Source: Auanema rhodensis
Taxonomy: Eukaryota > Animalia > Nematoda
NCBI GenBank assembly: GCA_964057225.1
Contig: OZ059894.1
Span: 16,678,001-16,742,000 of the forward strand
Direction: 5' to 3'
DNA length: 64,000 bases
Shown: positions 41,101-50,491 of the stretch, piece by piece
How positions within the stretch are numbered: the stretch's first letter is position 1
How the letters are laid out: every line of letters starts with the position of its first letter
The notes under the pieces: generated by a model
What the model saw: the letters and a program-made list of their open reading frames with translations, nothing else
What the model was told of the DNA's origin: nothing
Databases searched by the model: none
Position numbers and translations under genes: made by a program

Positions 41101-42801
41101 ATATTCAAGGTGTTTGCCAGTAACAAGCGAGTAAGTCATCAAATTATATTATCAATTTCAATACCATTAACTATGACAACTTTCTTTCAGAACTTGGTTT
41201 GGAAATCGTGCAAACCCATATTCTCATAAGTTCAGAAAGATCATTTCATTTTCTGTGCTCATATACGTTTTTCTTATGATCATATTTCCAATTGTTCTAT
41301 TAACAATCCTTAATTTGATGCTTCTATGTGCTTTGAGAAAACGACAAAAGCATTTACAACTACATAATGAAGCCGAAAAGTAAGTTTTTATTAAATTTTA
41401 TTAAATATTTTTTAATATTAAATAGATATTTATATCTACACTTCCTTAATTTGACACACCTTTAACTTTATAATATAATAAAGTGGACATACATGACGAA
41501 AGATTCAAAGACCAATGAAATTCTGCGCAAATCTTATCGTTTCATTCATTTTTCAAACTATTCATCAAGATATGATCAAATTAATGACTAATCCCTTAAA
41601 AAACATCAAAAATCCATGTTTTAATAATGGCTGTCGTTTCATTTATTTCTTTGGCATATTTTTTTTCTTGATCAAAAAATGAGGGACCGTTAAATATTCA
41701 AAAATACATAAAAAATTCAAAATTTTTTTTCAACAAAAAAAAACCATTAAAACAAACTTTTATATTATTTATTTGATTTATGAAGTAAATTTTACACAGT
41801 TATCTTATTTAGATGAATCAGATCAATAGAATTAAATAATAATCATCTTAATAAATTATTTATTTATATACTTTTATATAAAAATATATTTTTACATAAA
41901 AAGTACTTTATTGGTACAAAATTTGAAAAAAAAAAAAGTTGGTTCATTGTTGGATTTAGTAGTACATAAATATTAATAAAGAAAAATGAAAAATGTAAGA
42001 ATAAATTAAAAAGAAATATAAAAAAAATTAAAAAATACCTTTTTTATAGAAAATTTTTCACAATAAAAGAAGATTTTGAAGTAGAACTATCATAAAGAGA
42101 ATGTTTTTTTTTTCAAAATTTTGATCAGAAATAAATAAATAAAATGAAATAAAATATTAAAAACTATATAAATAGTATAATATATAATATATTGTTTTTC
42201 AACATTTATTTTTAGTTTCACATCACGAAGAACAAATGAAAATCAACTTCAAAAAACAGAACATAGAGTTACTCTAACGGTTACGTTCATTGTAACCATG
42301 TTTACATTAACTAATGGACCATCAGCTTTAATTCATTTAATTCGAACAGCATATCATTTACAACAACAAGAATTATATGATTTAACTATGATATGCAGGT
42401 AATATATTCATTTTTATTTTTTTTTATTTTTTATATTTTATTACAGTACACTTGTTATATGTGGAAAAGCTTCAAATTTCATATTATTCTGCCTTGGTTC
42501 AAAACATTTCCGACTTCGACTTATGAAGTTAACTCAAAAGAAAATGAATAAAAAAATTGGTAAGATATATATAAAGATCAATCATGATTGAATTGTATTC
42601 TTGTTTGTTTCAGATACACTAACAACTCATCTACTTCCATCATCTGTTAGTCGAGTTGTTATGTCACATCGACAGAGTGTACCATCCCAGAAGACAAGCT
42701 TAAGCGGCACCACTGCAAGCATTGTGACGACTGGACGTCCACGTCATTCAAGTACAGATCAATCCCGGCCATTCTTACTCCGTATGGACAATGATTTCTA
42801 A
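38123..42801 (+). CDS. Class A (rhodopsin-like) neuropeptide-type GPCR, FMRFamide/sex-peptide-receptor-like group, 9 exons
   Basis: Exons 38123-38211, 38259-38345, 38932-39111, 40867-41032, 41077-41130, 41191-41379, 42216-42398, 42447-42559, 42614-42801 splice in frame. TM1 GIFGNFLNLTVL, MRSRANSFL, TM2 LAFAD, TM3 CADRLVGIRSP (DRY variant), TM5 IFPIVLLTILN, TM6 EHRVTLTV..FTLTNGPSA, TM7 GKASNFILFCLGSKHFR, Ser/Thr-rich tail. Confidence 0.9.
40367..40481 (+). repeat. Short hairpin followed by a degenerate (CGT/CAT)n microsatellite in GPCR intron 3; possible helentron/DINE-like remnant
   Basis: TTTTATCCTCAAA-GCCC TCTC GGGC, then about 75 nt of GTC/ATC triplets; a sharp GC island inside an AT-rich intron. 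Confidence 0.6.
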
Positions 42802-43058: not shown

Positions 43059-43674
43059 AATCTTTCTCTTTGCAAGAAACACACACATACGGGTCCCATA
43101 TAAGACAATTATTAATCATTAAATTTTCTTAATTAAAAAGGTTTTAATCCTTATTTAAGAAAAGTTTTTAATTGTTTTCTCATTAAACAATATCTTTTAA
43201 CAATTGATCTCATGATCATTTTTGGTGCTCATTTACTGTTTTCATTTTTTATTTTAAATGAAATTGAATTATAATATGAATATATGTATATTTATATGAA
43301 TTAATATATATTAAACCAAAAATAAATAGAATTACTTAATTAAAGTTTTATAAATATTATTTAATAATTAATTTATGAAAATACAAATATGTTTCATCTT
43401 CTCATAACTTGTTTAAATTCTTTTCATTTAATATAATTTTTAAAAAACAATATTTAAAACTTAATTCTCATCTAATAGATAGATAGATACATCGTTCATA
43501 TCTGATAATGAGAAATTACAATTTCAATTTCTTTAGTAACTACGAATTGATTGTTGTTTTGCATTCAAAAGTGTCTTTCCGAGAATCTGATTAATGAAAG
43601 CTGTATCATCTGCTTCTTCGGCATTCTTCCCTATTAAGCTAACTTTGAAAATGCAAGTGGCAATCAGATCTTGA

Positions 43675-44000
43675 ATACTCTTTTCCATTATCAGTTTACA
43701 TCTTTTTTGGTTTCCTTTAACTCTCTATAAAAATTGAGAAAAGAGCATCTGCAGTTTCTTTGCCTGTTTTACTCCTTAGAGGAAGAACCCATGTAAACTT
43801 TGAAAAACAATCTATAATTGTTAAAAGATATCTCAAACCATCGTTTTCATCTGCATACACTTGCATTTCTACAAAATCTGATTACCACTGATCATCTATG
43901 CCATCAAAGTAAACTCTTTGACTTTTGAAGTTTTTACGAGCTGGATTATGCTTAAAGTGAAAACATCTTGTTGATTCCAAAATTCTTCGACAATTTTTTT
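43675..44000 (-). pseudogene. Maverick/Polinton-type retroviral-like integrase (c-integrase) fragment, inactivated
   Basis: Reads KIVEEFWNQQDVFTL / HNPARKNFKSQRVYFDGIDDQW*SDFVEMQVYADENDGLRYLLTIIDCFSKFTWVLPLRSKTGKETADALFSIFIES*RKPKKM*TDNGKEY. This matches the Polinton integrase pattern TLHKP.R..F.R..V....ID..WQ.DL..M.....N.G..Y.LT.ID.FSK..W..PL..K.G...RKP...QTD.G.EF. It has three in-frame stops, a frameshift near 43950, and ends before the catalytic Glu. Confidence 0.88.
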
Positions 44001-44045
44001 CTAGAAGTATTTTATCTTTTTCTTTGATGTCTTTATTTTGCTCAG

Positions 44046-45298
44046 GAATTCCATTTCCTCTCTTCAAAGTATTCAATCTTTCGGATATAGGAGTCGAAGA
44101 TTCTGTAGGAAGAGCAAATGAAGCTGGTACAGCGTTTTTGCTTCCGGACGGTTGGCCAGCTCTGCAATTTTTTGTGGAGTCCGATTAGGTGCCTTCTCGA
44201 TCAGCAACGTTGATCAACCAAACTATGAATGTAGGTCCGGTTAGCCTCAAAGGTATTACTAAATCTTGAACTCAGATTTAAATTTTATAACTAACAAAAA
44301 CTAAAAAATATTGACGAAATATGATTTTTTATTATTTTAGATTTGACCAATTTCAAAATATATGCGCGTTACTTATTCTACACTCGTATTCTATTGAAGA
44401 ACAACAATGGGTCGATTGTAGAAGACGTGGATATGAAATTCCTTTTTACACAACATTGATTCCACATCGTTATTTTGTTATTTCTACGCGGCATGGAAGT
44501 CATCAATGTCTTAAGGAAGGTGAAGAAATTAAAGTGTACAATTCCGATCATGTACCGTTCAAAGTCAAAGTGATCTTCTATGATGACGATCGCGATTTCA
44601 TTGTTTTTGAGTCGGATATTGAACTATGTGATAACATGTACCAATCCGTGGTTCGATTAACGGAGGTTGCAGTTATGCTGTGTTGATATGTTTTCACGTT
44701 TTTTCACTTTTTGTTAGTAAAGGAATAAATTTTCTATTATACATAATTATATCAACTACAGGTGATTTTTTAGGGTTTCGAAGATATCAATCAACAGAAA
44801 AAAGACACCGAACATATTCCCTTGTTATGTAAGCGGAATTATCATGTATTCCTAGCCTAATTCGATGGGTCATTTTGTGGTAGTTCCGAAGGAGTAGCTG
44901 GACTGAGTGGTGGTCCTGTTTTCGATTTGTGTAATATTTTTAATTATAAAATTTTAATATTTAATGGTCTCAAAAATTAAATTTTTTTGCTGACAATCAC
45001 CTTATTGGCATTTGCGTTTCGACGGACGATTTGAATGACCGCGAGACGTTATGTGATCGTTTTTCCTCTGATATGATTAATTATTGTAAAGAAATTACAA
45101 TCGTTTGAATCATGTCGGTTGAAGTTGTTGCTAATTTCCTGCATTCTACTATTAATCCCGTAACTTTTTAATTTTTTAATAAACTTTTAATTATTGAGCA
45201 TGAAATAAGCCAATTGATAGATATCTTCTACATCATATTATTTATTTCAGAAAAAAGCAGTTGAAGCGATGTTTGTAGGAAAAAGAAAAAATAATTGA
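44046..45298 (+). pseudogene. Intron-containing trypsin-like serine protease pseudogene (wosp-like)
   Basis: Catalytic triad in order: His in FVISTRHGSH (44492), Asp in DDDRDFIVF (44594), Ser in EGVAGLSGGPVFD (44906), followed by LIGICVS. Intron remnants include 44273-44340 (GT..TTTTAG). There are several frameshifts, in-frame stops and an apparently mutated donor (ATATGT at 44686). Confidence 0.75.
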
Positions 45299-48200
45299 GT
45301 TAGTGAATTTGATGTAATTGTAAAAGTATGTGATAAATAATTTTATAAAACTCAAAATTTTATCCTCAATTTGCTGGTAATTAAATTAATTCAAATATCT
45401 CTTTGATTTGTAATAATAAAATTTTGAATATTACTAATTACCAAAGAAAATATTGGATAAAAATTATGAAATAGTTTTGATAAAAATTTGATGGAGAGTT
45501 TAATAATTGAGATTTATTACTTTCTAATACCTGAAATTCTTAATTTCCAGTACTATTACAAACTCTTCGAGGTTGATGTTGGTCAATGGTTTCAAGTCTT
45601 TCTTCAGAGTAGTCATTTATTAAGATTATTTTTATTTGAAAATGTTGAAAAGCTGAAATTTTAAAAAATGGGGTACTGAGCAAAATGGACAACAGCTGCG
45701 CCAGTCATTTTTTGGTCATTTTTCAAAAATGACACATTTTGAGAAAATTAAGACATGTTTTCACTTCAAAAATGGGTTTAAATGGCTGAAAATCTGAAAA
45801 AACGTTGGACAAAAAGGTGCGCCAGAAACAACTTTTTATATATTACTTATATGTATGTTGGTTTATTCTTTCATATCTTATATACATATATAAATATAAT
45901 TCTTAAAATCATAGTATATAAAGCGATTATTAAGAAAGCAAGCAAAAGTACCAATACCATGTGAGTTTGCTATTGAATTTGTGCAAAAAAAAACCCAAAT
46001 AAGTGAAACCAAGAAAATAACTGAAAAAGACTTTAATATTCTCAGCACATTTGAATCCGAGAAATGTTTTGCAGTGAAGCCTGCAGACGAAATTCTAAAT
46101 TTGAGAATAAGAACTAGGCTAAGTGTGAAGGAAAACTAATAAATAATATGAAATTTCACCAATAATATCATGATTTCAATATTTTCAATAAACTCGTATA
46201 CATTTAATTTTATATAATGATGTACATAATCTTAACTATATATATATATATATATTTTTTTTTTTTTTAATTATTAATAAGAACTGTTTTACATGTTTTC
46301 AATTTTTGCTCATCACATCATAGTTAATCCAAGTTGCAAAACGTTACAGCTTTTAATTTATAAGTTCTTCATTGAAGTACAAAAATCGAAATAATACTTG
46401 TACATGAATATTTCATTAAATATTTGAAATTCCTATTTAAATTTCTGAAAATTGGGAACAAATTCTGCATTGTAACCGTAAACATATCATTTTAGCTCAA
46501 AACAAAAGATAAAAATATAAAAGATGAACGACCATGACAAACGTTTTTTTTCATTTTTTTAGGAGTTCAGTATCACATATTCTATTTTCTATTATTGGCA
46601 AAGTTACTTTTATTTTCAAAAGAAAAGCAGATTTTTTATTATTTTTTTCATTTTTGAAAGCTTTGTGTTCTATTTGAAATAACTCTTTCTTTTTTTTTTG
46701 TAAATTTAACCAAGTACAGATGTAGTATAGTTAAATTGATCAAACTAACTAAATATGTATAAATGTATGTACATATATAGTTAATAATATATTTTAATTT
46801 TCTAATTATTCATTTCTAAAATATATTAGTTTATATATTATAAATTATAATAAATAAAGAAAAAAAATCATTGTTTAATAAAGTAATAATTTGTTGAATT
46901 TATCATGAATACTTATTTTCTTATATTTTAACTTACATACATACATAATTATAACTTATTTCAACAATTTCTTATAATATACATACATATTTTTATATAT
47001 TTCTATATATTCATAAATCATATATTTATTTTTTCTTTGTTTCAATTAGAAAAAATATGAAAAATATTTTAGTTTTATCAATAGAATTGGAATTTGATGG
47101 ATACATTTATAGTTAAAGATATATAGTTAATGATTAAGAAGCTTGAACTTTCTTTTTATAGAAATTCTAATATTCTTAAATACGATAATCGTTTCTAATA
47201 ATTCTTTCCTTTTTTGAAAAATGGAAAAATTTTTATATTTCATTTTAAAAACAATATACGAGACAAGTTACACAGAAAGGTTTTAAATAACATTTAATCA
47301 AACTAATATCTAATTTTGAATAAAAAATTGTTTAATATGAATGTTGTAAATATATTTAATTGGTTATAAAGTTTATTTTTTCTTCAATTCACAATAACTG
47401 AGTAGAAATTTCGGAAATGAATGTTAGTATTCTCAAAGCTTACTCAGTCATTTTTTTTCTCACAAAAAAATATTATTTCATAATATCATATATATTATTT
47501 TTTTGAAAAAAAAATTTATATCAACCTACATGTATACATAAATCAAAAATATTATTTGAAAGTCATCTTCATTCTCAAACTTATCTTAATATTTGAGATA
47601 TCATGAGATAATGCATACATGTACATGTATGTAGTATAGTACTATAGATAATGTAAGAATTCTGTTTTTCTTTAAAAATTCATTCAATAGTAAATCATTA
47701 AAATAATAAATAATACATATATATGTATGTCTAATTTAAATAGATTAGGAAAATAAGATATTATAACTCTTTAACTTTTAAATAAATTAAAAATATTTTT
47801 ATATTATATAATACTAGTTAAATTAATTTTATTATATTAAGTTTTATTACAATGTTTTAATAACAGATGAATGATATATGTATGTATATCTTTCTAATAT
47901 GTACATTCATATACATATGTATGTATAAATATATTCTTATTTATATATATTATAATAATTTATTTATACTTTATAAAATCTTATTTTTATTTAAATAATT
48001 ATACATTTAAATAATTTATTTATCACGTATTTTAGCTGATAATTTTCGCACACTTTGTTTACTGACGTGACTTCACGTTATATTCCAAATTTTTCATTTT
48101 TGATTTACATGTGCTTTAGAACAGTTGCTTTTTTTTATTTTCAATTCCCTTTCTTCTCATTTTGTCATTTAGCTTTTAATTGCTTTTTTAACTTATTTGT

Positions 48201-49210: not shown

Positions 49211-50491
49211 ATGGATAATAGAAGAGCTGAAGATAGCATTCCGAGTGAGTTTAAAGCATATTTTGAAAAAACTTTTATAATTTCAAAACAGATGCGAATT
49301 TTCAAACATATGCAACGATGAATGAAAATCTACATAGTGAATCTGAACGAAATTCACAAGAAGCTATTGAGACTGATCTTCAAGAAACTGATACAATAAA
49401 CCATATTGATGTGAGCTCTGATGAATCAGATGAAGTTATCTCATGGGTAACTCCATCTGATTTATACCTTGATGCAGCTACGCAGCAATTTCGAACACCT
49501 GCTTCGGTTCCTCGACCTAAAAATGTATCCTTGTTCGACTTATATCAGAGCATTAATCAGGTTAATTTGTGTTTTTTTTTTTATTTAAAAAAAATAGTTG
49601 AACCTTTAATCTTTAAAATCGAAAGAAAAGTTCAAATACTTGTCTTCAAATATAATTCTCACTCAACGTTTCAACACCAATTTTGTTTATTTAATCCTCA
49701 GCTTAAAAATTTTAATACAATTTTCATTAGAAAGATTCATTTATTTATAGGATTCCATAGGAAATGGAGAAGCAAATCTTTCTTCAAGTAGAGATGATAA
49801 CATTCGAATTCTGATGTGGAGGGCTGGAGAAAACTTTAGAAATCAACTAGAGAATCGAGCGGAAGAGGAAGTGAGGCTTGCTATATTATTTTTCTAGAAC
49901 ATTCATTTCTAATATGTTTTCTTAAATGATTATTAATAATGGTTTTAGACGGAAGGTGCAGCTTTTGTATCTTCTAACTATTATGTTCCAACAACATCAC
50001 CTCATAATTGTCAACATGTTCATGCTCACGCTCATCCGAACGTATATGCTTGTCCACAAACTGTATATTATGCTATTACTTATTATAAGCTAATCTCATG
50101 TATTTAGATGAATCCTATCATGCCTCCAGCGGTTCCATCAAGCTTGGCCTTTCAGCCTATTGCCCATAATCCTTATGGATACACACCCTATGTGAATGCA
50201 GCATCTATTCAACATCCGACAACCTTCCAGCTTCATCATCATCATCATCATCATCACCATCATCATTTGCATTATGTTCAAGGAGGTCCATTACAAACAA
50301 CAACACTGCAATCGAATATTTATGCTGCAACACCCCGGCTAGATACAGCTCCAACATCAGCTCACATCTTTCCCATTACGAATATGATTTGTCCATATAC
50401 AACAGTAGCGTTAACAACACCTGTTGATCACATTCATACCCACAATACTACAATGTCCGGTAAAAATCCAACAGAATTTGCCCATCAGTAA
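49211..50491 (+). CDS. Uncharacterised ~306 aa low-complexity protein with acidic N-terminal half and Pro/Thr/His-rich C-terminal half (poly-His11), 5 exons
   Basis: Upstream acceptor at 49162. Exons 49211-49244, 49292-49560, 49751-49870, 49949-50062, 50108-50491 join in frame over GT-AG introns with no stops. No recognisable domain. Confidence 0.8.

What the first reader, a model, noticed from the sequence alone, without database searches (positions are those of the whole stretch)
43675..45298. Fossil Maverick carrying a wosp-like serine protease cargo gene
Seen: a Polinton/Maverick-type integrase pseudogene (minus strand) directly abuts, head-to-head and with no room for promoters, an intron-containing trypsin-like protease pseudogene (plus strand) with His (STRHG), Asp (RDFIV) and Ser (GLSGGP) motifs. 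Established: nematode Mavericks carry wosp serine proteases as cargo across species boundaries, and a wosp-derived fusion is the msft-1 toxin of a C. briggsae toxin-antidote element (Widen et al., Science 2023). Inference: this is a collapsed remnant of such a virus-like vector. It would record a horizontal cargo transfer into this lineage and imply intact sister copies, and possibly selfish toxin derivatives, elsewhere in the genome.
Basis: partly seen in the sequence, partly recalled or inferred. Interest (0 to 1): 0.85.

Follow-up and report, generated by a model that had tools for sequence, protein, structure and literature searches.

The report
Collapsed Maverick relic with dead protease
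A 1.6-kb dead scrap in a roundworm genome joins a broken integrase of a virus-like Maverick transposon head-to-head with a broken protease gene that it likely carried as cargo; the closest named relatives of the two pieces come from two different worm families, which suggests but does not show transfer between species, a process already described for this kind of element.

Summary
Observation confirmed. A Polinton/Maverick-type integrase relic (minus, 43675-44111; Pfam rve E 6e-12) meets an intron-bearing protease pseudogene (plus, 44111-45298) at one base. Both lack their first ~55 codons, which points to one deletion through a divergent gene pair. Intact relatives of the protease have an N-terminal ubiquitin-like fold and an HtrA-like protease fold, the WASP/wosp architecture of Widen et al. 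Its closest named relative is from Mesorhabditis belari (92 of 118 residues); the integrase linker is closest to Heterorhabditis bacteriophora Mavericks (33 of 39). A differently labelled organism holds both genes at 91-95% nucleotide identity, introns included, without the window's four frameshifts. The listed differences look like neutral decay. Horizontal entry into this lineage is inferred, not shown: host species, host-gene divergence, terminal repeats and an intact linked copy could not be tested. Nothing supports toxin activity or toxin derivatives, and this protease is not near the relative that best fits MSFT-1's published residue numbers. It is a new, dead instance of a published system. 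The scan's earlier notes hold no wosp finding.

The parts
43675..44111 (-). Maverick/Polinton-type integrase pseudogene: linker plus first two thirds of the catalytic core; lacks the N-terminal DUF5679 part, the third acidic motif and the chromodomain; three stops and one internal deletion
   Evidence: Pfam rve E 6e-12; 15 of 15 hits are integrases of this type, 14 with rve and one with DUF5679 only; alignments; tree
44111..44116 (.). Junction of the two 5'-truncated genes; both matches in organism D reach 44111, and the protease side keeps only the end of an upstream intron-like stretch
   Evidence: loose ends and contig pieces in runs X11 and X12 (tables 7 and 8); homology starts at 44112 and 44117
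44113..44252 (+). Protease exon carrying the last third of the ubiquitin-like module and the linker; stop at 44186
   Evidence: 22 of 49 identical to P0001; 71% over 28 aa to P0039; fold of relative P0061
44253..44340 (+). Intron, canonical GT-AG, 88 nt (inferred from sequence and homology; no RNA data)
44341..44685 (+). Protease exon with catalytic His (44492) and Asp (44594) motifs; frame breaks near 44437 and 44639
   Evidence: 91% over 67 aa to P0022
44686..44773 (+). Intron with a non-canonical (decayed) donor
   Evidence: P0022 aligns on past the donor
44774..44930 (+). Protease exon with catalytic Ser motif (44906); frame breaks near 44818 and 44874, stop at 44853
44931..44994 (+). Intron with decayed ends (limits approximate)
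44995..45159 (+). Protease C-terminal exon; stop at 45106
   Evidence: 43 of 54 identical to M. belari P0021 and P0125
45160..45298 (+). Canonical GT-AG intron (45160-45250) and short basic last exon ending in a stop at 45296-98 (inferred)
   Evidence: organism D contigs run through to 45300

Best explanation
This is a dead, likely deletion-collapsed remnant of a nematode Maverick transposon and the WASP/wosp-type protease that it likely carried as cargo. Likely sequence of events: (1) a Maverick with an intron-bearing protease gene lying head-to-head with its integrase inserted downstream of a host GPCR gene (inferred); (2) one deletion removed both promoters, the first protease exon with most of its intron and the first ~55 integrase codons, joining the genes at 44111 (truncations shown, single event inferred); (3) another deletion or rearrangement removed everything past the middle of the integrase (truncation shown); (4) both genes then decayed neutrally, gaining stops, frameshifts and broken splice sites (shown). 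It has no predicted function today. The element probably entered this lineage horizontally (my odds about 0.65), since its two parts are nearly identical, once decay is allowed for, to genes of two different nematode families.
For: Integrase: nearest proteins are H. bacteriophora and Caenorhabditis rve + DUF5679 + chromo integrases, 66-77% over the 92-aa core. More distant relatives in metagenome contigs sit beside A32 ATPase, protein-primed polymerase B and double-jelly-roll capsid genes (such hits in 5 of the 7 loci sampled: L003, L005, L008, L015, L020, plus L006 with ATPase; L002 gave none). Protease: the model of P0003 matches HtrA1/Deg1/DegS (Foldseek E 3e-8). The N-terminal module of relative P0061 (pLDDT 81) is ubiquitin-like (Z 10.3 to the TDP-43 N-terminal domain, rmsd 1.9, 74 aligned; about 7 to ubiquitin-like and PB1 domains). 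[quoted passage not shown] The same N-terminal module sits on several protease subfamilies, as in their modularity result. Both genes are truncated at residue ~56 at one point. Organism D holds both genes at 91-95% identity, introns included, runs on past each truncation and has indels at all four protease frame breaks. 10 of 37 listed coding differences are at third codon positions, as neutral decay predicts. Cross-family near-identity: integrase linker 33, 32 and 31 of 39 to three H. bacteriophora proteins against 8-12 of 39 for nine others; protease 92 of 118 to M. belari against 72 of 118 to Auanema and C. tropicalis, tree path 0.23 of which 0.19 is the window's own branch; the two genera lie in different superfamilies.
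Against: No TIR, target-site duplication or other Maverick core gene was found in the window, though the core-gene queries were distant. No intact element linking this protease to this integrase was seen: organism D's contigs are short and do not join them, and none of 80 metagenome integrase loci carries the protease. MSFT-1 and the published WASP set were not available; none of the 104 profile hits has MSFT-1's His148/Asp184/Ser256 numbering, and CBG29787 and CBG26403 were not among 20 look-ups, so family membership rests on architecture and taxa. The window's place inside its protease clade is unresolved, and the integrase grouping is not strongly supported (93/90). The host and organism D are unidentified, so 5-9% divergence could be vertical between sister species. 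Only 40 of 155 differing places were shown, so the codon-position count is a partial sample. The P0003 model is weak overall (mean pLDDT 51).
Confidence: 0.85

Rival explanations
1. Same Maverick-plus-cargo relic, but inherited vertically: the element was already in the common ancestor of the host and organism D and only decayed here, so this locus records no new transfer into this lineage.
For: Organism D could be a sister species; 5-9% divergence that is mostly decay fits that. Polintons are listed for two Heterorhabditis species and one Auanema species (Jeong et al. supplementary table).
Against: Whatever the host is, one of the two parts is close to a gene of another family, so a transfer probably occurred somewhere in the recent history of the element.
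Confidence: 0.3
2. Chance nesting: a Maverick inserted into the first intron of a resident host wosp gene in the opposite orientation, and later deletions left the two abutting.
For: The protease side of the junction lies at an intron end; no TIR beyond the protease was found; only 47 of 235 WASP genes were within 6 kb of a Maverick gene in Widen et al..
Against: Both genes differ from organism D's copies to a similar, neutral-looking degree. The order protease-integrase is the published cargo position, and the preprint's circular C. bovis element has the cargo's 3' end facing the TIR, which fits this orientation.
Confidence: 0.1
3. The locus is, or marks, a selfish toxin-antidote element like msft-1/tlpr-1.
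For: Family relationship to the WASP proteases from which msft-1 arose.
Against: The gene has no promoter or start, three stops, four frameshifts and two decayed introns. The hit that best fits MSFT-1's lysine and triad numbering (P0104: K8, K12, K25; H145, D179, S252) is only 20-24% identical to this subfamily and sits on a long separate branch. No long ORF that could be a MULE transposase lies nearby.
Confidence: 0.03
4. The integrase comes from a Gypsy or Ginger element, and the adjacency is unrelated to Mavericks.
For: Pfam rve is shared by these groups; no Gypsy or Ginger sequence was in my tree.
Against: The top hits carry DUF5679 and chromo domains, and relatives lie among Polinton core genes. 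No long ORF that could be reverse transcriptase or RNase H lies nearby.
Confidence: 0.02

Closest known systems
[quoted passage not shown]
   Same: Intron-bearing ubiquitin-like + HtrA-like protease gene next to a Maverick integrase; pseudogenised; close relatives scattered over Mesorhabditis, Auanema, Caenorhabditis and Panagrolaimus; modular N-terminal domain.
   Different: Reduced to 1.6 kb with both 5' ends deleted; no TIR or other core gene recognised; protease subfamily apparently distant from MSFT-1; horizontal transfer not tested by dS here.
Heterorhabditis bacteriophora Polinton/Maverick integrases (P0004, P0005, P0010; Polintons listed for this species in Jeong et al., PMC10748475, supplementary table rows seen)
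   Same: Integrase linker 31-33 of 39 identical; core 66-77% identical.
   Different: The window copy is truncated at both ends with three stops; whether those H. bacteriophora elements carry this protease was not visible.
msft-1/tlpr-1 toxin-antidote element of C. briggsae
   Same: Same broad protease architecture.
   Different: No MULE, no antidote candidate seen, gene dead, distant subfamily; nothing points to toxicity.

Membership tests
Maverick/Polinton | Retroviral-like integrase of the Polinton type (DUF5679 + rve + chromo in nematodes) | tested here: met
   rve E 6e-12; nearest intact proteins have this architecture; relatives flanked by Polinton core genes. The window keeps only the linker and part of the core.
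Maverick/Polinton | Protein-primed polymerase B, packaging ATPase, maturation protease, major and minor capsid genes | tested here: inconclusive
   484 ORFs from 80 Polinton-type loci hit the window only in the integrase; the queries are distant and the relic is truncated.
Maverick/Polinton | Terminal inverted repeats and target-site duplication | tested here: inconclusive
   Only low-complexity inverted repeats; one recalled terminal hexamer at 45608 without a partner.
Nematode Maverick | Herpesvirus gB-like fusogen (mfus-1) | not tested
   No fusogen sequence was at hand.
WASP/wosp proteases | N-terminal ubiquitin-like domain | tested here: met
   Model of relative P0061 is ubiquitin-like; the window keeps its last third; P0028 and P0055 have K8, K12, K29 as numbered for MSFT-1.
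WASP/wosp proteases | HtrA-like serine protease domain without PDZ, His-Asp-Ser triad | tested here: met
   Foldseek top hits HtrA1/Deg1/DegS; Pfam Trypsin_2 and no PDZ in P0001 and P0003; triad H137/D171/S246 in P0003 and the three motifs in the window.
WASP/wosp proteases | Membership of the published 235-protein orthogroup (Data S1) | not testable with these tools
   Preprint supplements closed, Science version not held; CBG29787 and CBG26403 not among 20 look-ups.
Maverick cargo | Intron-bearing gene within 6 kb of a Maverick core gene, on the integrase side | tested here: met
   Zero distance to the integrase; four introns inferred, two with canonical ends.
Maverick cargo | Horizontal-transfer signature (low dS against host genes, tree incongruence) | tested here: inconclusive
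   Cross-family near-identity, but host unidentified and host-gene divergence not measured.
msft-1-type toxin-antidote element | Expressed, catalytically intact protease toxin | tested here: not met
   No promoter or start, three stops, four frameshifts.
msft-1-type toxin-antidote element | Linked MULE transposase and MAAP antidote | not tested
   No MULE or MAAP query was at hand; no long ORF nearby.

The most novel reading that the evidence does not exclude
The relic is the fossil of a recent cross-family vector: a Maverick with a Heterorhabditis-type backbone that carried a Mesorhabditis-type wosp protease, entered this host horizontally and still has less-decayed, possibly intact kin in organism D. 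It would be a datable record of cargo exchange between two nematode superfamilies.
Probability: 0.45. Interest if true: 0.5.

Novelty: new member of a known kind. Interest (0 to 1): 0.33.

Why it matters
It adds one more lineage and one more protease subfamily to the published case that Mavericks carry wosp genes between nematodes, and it gives a neutral clock: a dead copy 5-9% away from less-decayed copies in another organism. It also shows how such cargo dies, by a deletion through the shared promoter region. It does not reveal a new mechanism, and a specialist would expect such relics.

Tried and rejected
No genome of the window is held, so the genome-wide search for intact copies was not possible. 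Pfam finds nothing on the broken protease frames. Viral-contig scans with P0003, P0004 and the integrase alignment found no relatives; the metagenome scan with the protease alignment found none. No RNA holder listed. In run X9, which holds the same relic, the listed pieces show several diverged integrase copies (about 82-84%) and no second protease copy, but 9 pieces were not shown and contigs cannot show absence. Organism D has no cover at 43500-43673; this is not used as evidence. The open minus-strand tail at 43533-43674 (35% GC) was tested as a third Maverick fragment: no Pfam family above E 0.03, no match in 80 loci, not in the Atlas; left unexplained. The first protease tree had two mis-framed pieces and was redone; the second tree left out eight fragmentary or long-branch rows (P0022, P0126, P0024-P0027, P0055, P0079). 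A sequence search of the PDB with P0003 gave one weak hit (E 0.64). The empty-site test could not be run, as no flanks could be laid. Literature searches: wosp+Maverick+nematode, Mavericks/msft-1/briggsae, Heterorhabditis+Maverick, wosp+protease+horizontal, Heterorhabditis/genomes/TE/Polinton, Mesorhabditis+Maverick+horizontal, TDP-43+Maverick+nematode; no listing pointed to this locus, but the WASP data file that could list it was not visible. Earlier scan notes: nothing for this genome, its relatives or P0003; eight other Maverick-cargo notes did not bear on it.

Full report
Setting. The window is from a nematode-type genome: AT-rich (19-37% GC per 2 kb), short introns, exons for a BTB/potassium-channel domain, MoeA, an Srw-type GPCR (weak, E 0.005), AMP-binding enzyme, bestrophin and ribosomal protein S5. 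The host species was not determined and no genome is held. The finding lies about 870 bases past the last GPCR exon (stop at 42801), in a stretch of 31-33% GC between flanks of 16-19%.

The integrase. The minus frame matches Pfam rve at E 6e-12. All 15 homologues found are integrases of one type; the best are from Heterorhabditis bacteriophora and Caenorhabditis, most with DUF5679 and/or a chromodomain. Homology starts at 44112 (residue 56 of P0004) and ends at about 43675, after the second acidic motif; there are three stops and an internal deletion. A metagenome scan returned 80 loci with more distant integrases (best 55% over the core). Of 7 loci sampled by Pfam, six had an A32 ATPase, polymerase B or double-jelly-roll capsid gene beside the integrase. 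In a 46-row tree the window falls among the nematode proteins (93/90, not starred). No Gypsy or Ginger sequence was in that tree.

The protease. The first relatives found were Auanema P0001 and P0002 and C. tropicalis P0003. They show that the gene starts earlier than its long ORF: homology begins at 44117, residue 56 of P0001. Five exon remnants and four introns are inferred, two introns with canonical ends and two decayed; there are stops at 44186, 44853 and 45106 and four frame breaks. A profile search found 104 relatives at E<=0.001. Of 20 looked up, 12 carry an organism name: 11 nematodes (Mesorhabditis, Auanema, five Caenorhabditis species, Panagrolaimus, Aphelenchoides) and one Amoeboradix protein. 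The model of P0003 (mean pLDDT 51, protease core 70-87) matches HtrA1, Deg1, DegS and DegP at E 3e-8 to 9e-7, and the Atlas puts it with Trypsin_2 clusters. The N-terminal module, modelled from P0061 with 24 sequences (pLDDT 81), is ubiquitin-like: best Z 10.3 (rmsd 1.9, 74 aligned) to the TDP-43 N-terminal domain, then about 7 to PB1 and ubiquitin-like domains.

Comparison with the paper. I read the whole main text of the Widen preprint (10.1101/2022.07.12.499685), without figures or supplements; the Science version is not held. One passage of a meeting report confirms the later name wosp (PMC10680173). [quoted passage not shown] The window's family matches this architecture. No hit has MSFT-1's numbering; the nearest in numbering, P0104, is 20-24% identical to this subfamily and far away in the tree. 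Family membership is therefore well supported by architecture but not checked against the published set, whose data file could also already list this locus. From Jeong et al. I read passages and one section of the preprint and six table rows of the journal supplement plus one for Auanema, listing Polintons in H. bacteriophora, H. indica and A. rhodensis.

Other organisms. Twenty runs hold the stretch or part of it, under four organism labels; seven may be the source of this DNA. Four runs were laid on 43500-45300. Run X9 (organism C) holds the same relic: one contig spans the junction with no difference, so the junction is unlikely to be an assembly artefact of the window. It also holds other integrase copies about 82-84% alike. 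Runs X11 and X12 (organism D, two studies) hold the integrase at 95.3% and 94.8% and the protease at 91.0-91.6%, introns included. In D the integrase continues past both window truncations, the protease continues upstream into an AT-rich intron-like end, both matches reach 44111, and there are indels at all four places where the window's protease frame breaks. So the window holds the decayed copy. D's contigs do not link the two genes. Of the 40 differing places shown (of 155), I used the 37 in the integrase and the main protease exon and dropped three (44162, 44170 and the splice-site place 44686): 10 are at third codon positions, not different from one third (p 0.49) and below an assumed 60% for a gene under selection.

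Horizontal transfer. The integrase linker is 33, 32 and 31 of 39 identical to three H. bacteriophora proteins and 8-12 of 39 to nine other integrases. The protease is 92 of 118 identical to M. belari P0021 over its five C-terminal pieces, against 72 of 118 for Auanema and C. tropicalis; the tree path to M. belari is 0.23, of which 0.19 is the window's own branch. Neutral decay of 8.4% alone would change about 18% of residues, so the gene before decay was probably close to the M. belari protein (inference). Heterorhabditis and Mesorhabditis lie in different superfamilies. Whichever the host is, one part has a near-identical counterpart in another family, which argues for transfer in the element's recent history. 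It does not give donor, direction or date, the branching inside the clade is unresolved, and databases sample these genera unevenly. If D is a sister species, this particular insertion may be inherited.

What was not found. No TIR, target-site duplication or further Maverick gene in the window; no protease beside any of 80 metagenome integrases; nothing that points to toxicity, an antidote or a MULE. Intact sister copies in the host genome are untested.

Verdict. Horizontal entry is likely (about 0.65) but not shown. The toxin extension is unsupported. This is a new member of a published kind; interest 0.33.

Noticed in passing
P0061 model; P0003 residues 4-69: The ubiquitin-like module of this protease family is structurally closest to the TDP-43 N-terminal domain (Z 10.3 against about 7.5 for the next), and P0003 has a weak Pfam TDP-43_N hit (E 0.0066). 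The Widen preprint text does not mention TDP-43 and one search found no paper joining the terms. It may hint at an oligomerisation module; untested.
   Followed up: partly
window 43533-43674 (minus): 141-nt stretch of 35% GC with an open frame of about 47 codons directly after the integrase truncation; no family, no match among 80 loci. Origin unexplained.
   Followed up: partly
window 45541-45830: Second GC-richer island (32%) in AT-rich flank, with a GGGGTACTG end-like word at about 45670; may be a piece of another DNA transposon or of the element's arm.
   Followed up: no
window 44111-44206 in runs X11 and X12: Several organism D contigs match the ubiquitin-like exon and then diverge, at higher summed depth than the protease domain, which fits the module being shared by several cargo genes (depth is not copy number).
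   Followed up: no
P0050 (Caenorhabditis sp. 36): The same N-terminal module is predicted fused to a WD40-like piece rather than a protease; could be a gene-model artefact or a new cargo fusion.
   Followed up: no
P0034 (Amoeboradix gromovi): A non-nematode eukaryote protein scores E 2e-17 against the protease profile over the catalytic domain.
   Followed up: no
L005:6970-7500: In this metagenome Polinton-type locus DUF5679 is followed by a phospholipase A2-like domain just upstream of the integrase core.
   Followed up: no
window 50108-50488: Open frame rich in proline and alanine with a run of ten histidines; no Pfam family.
   Followed up: no
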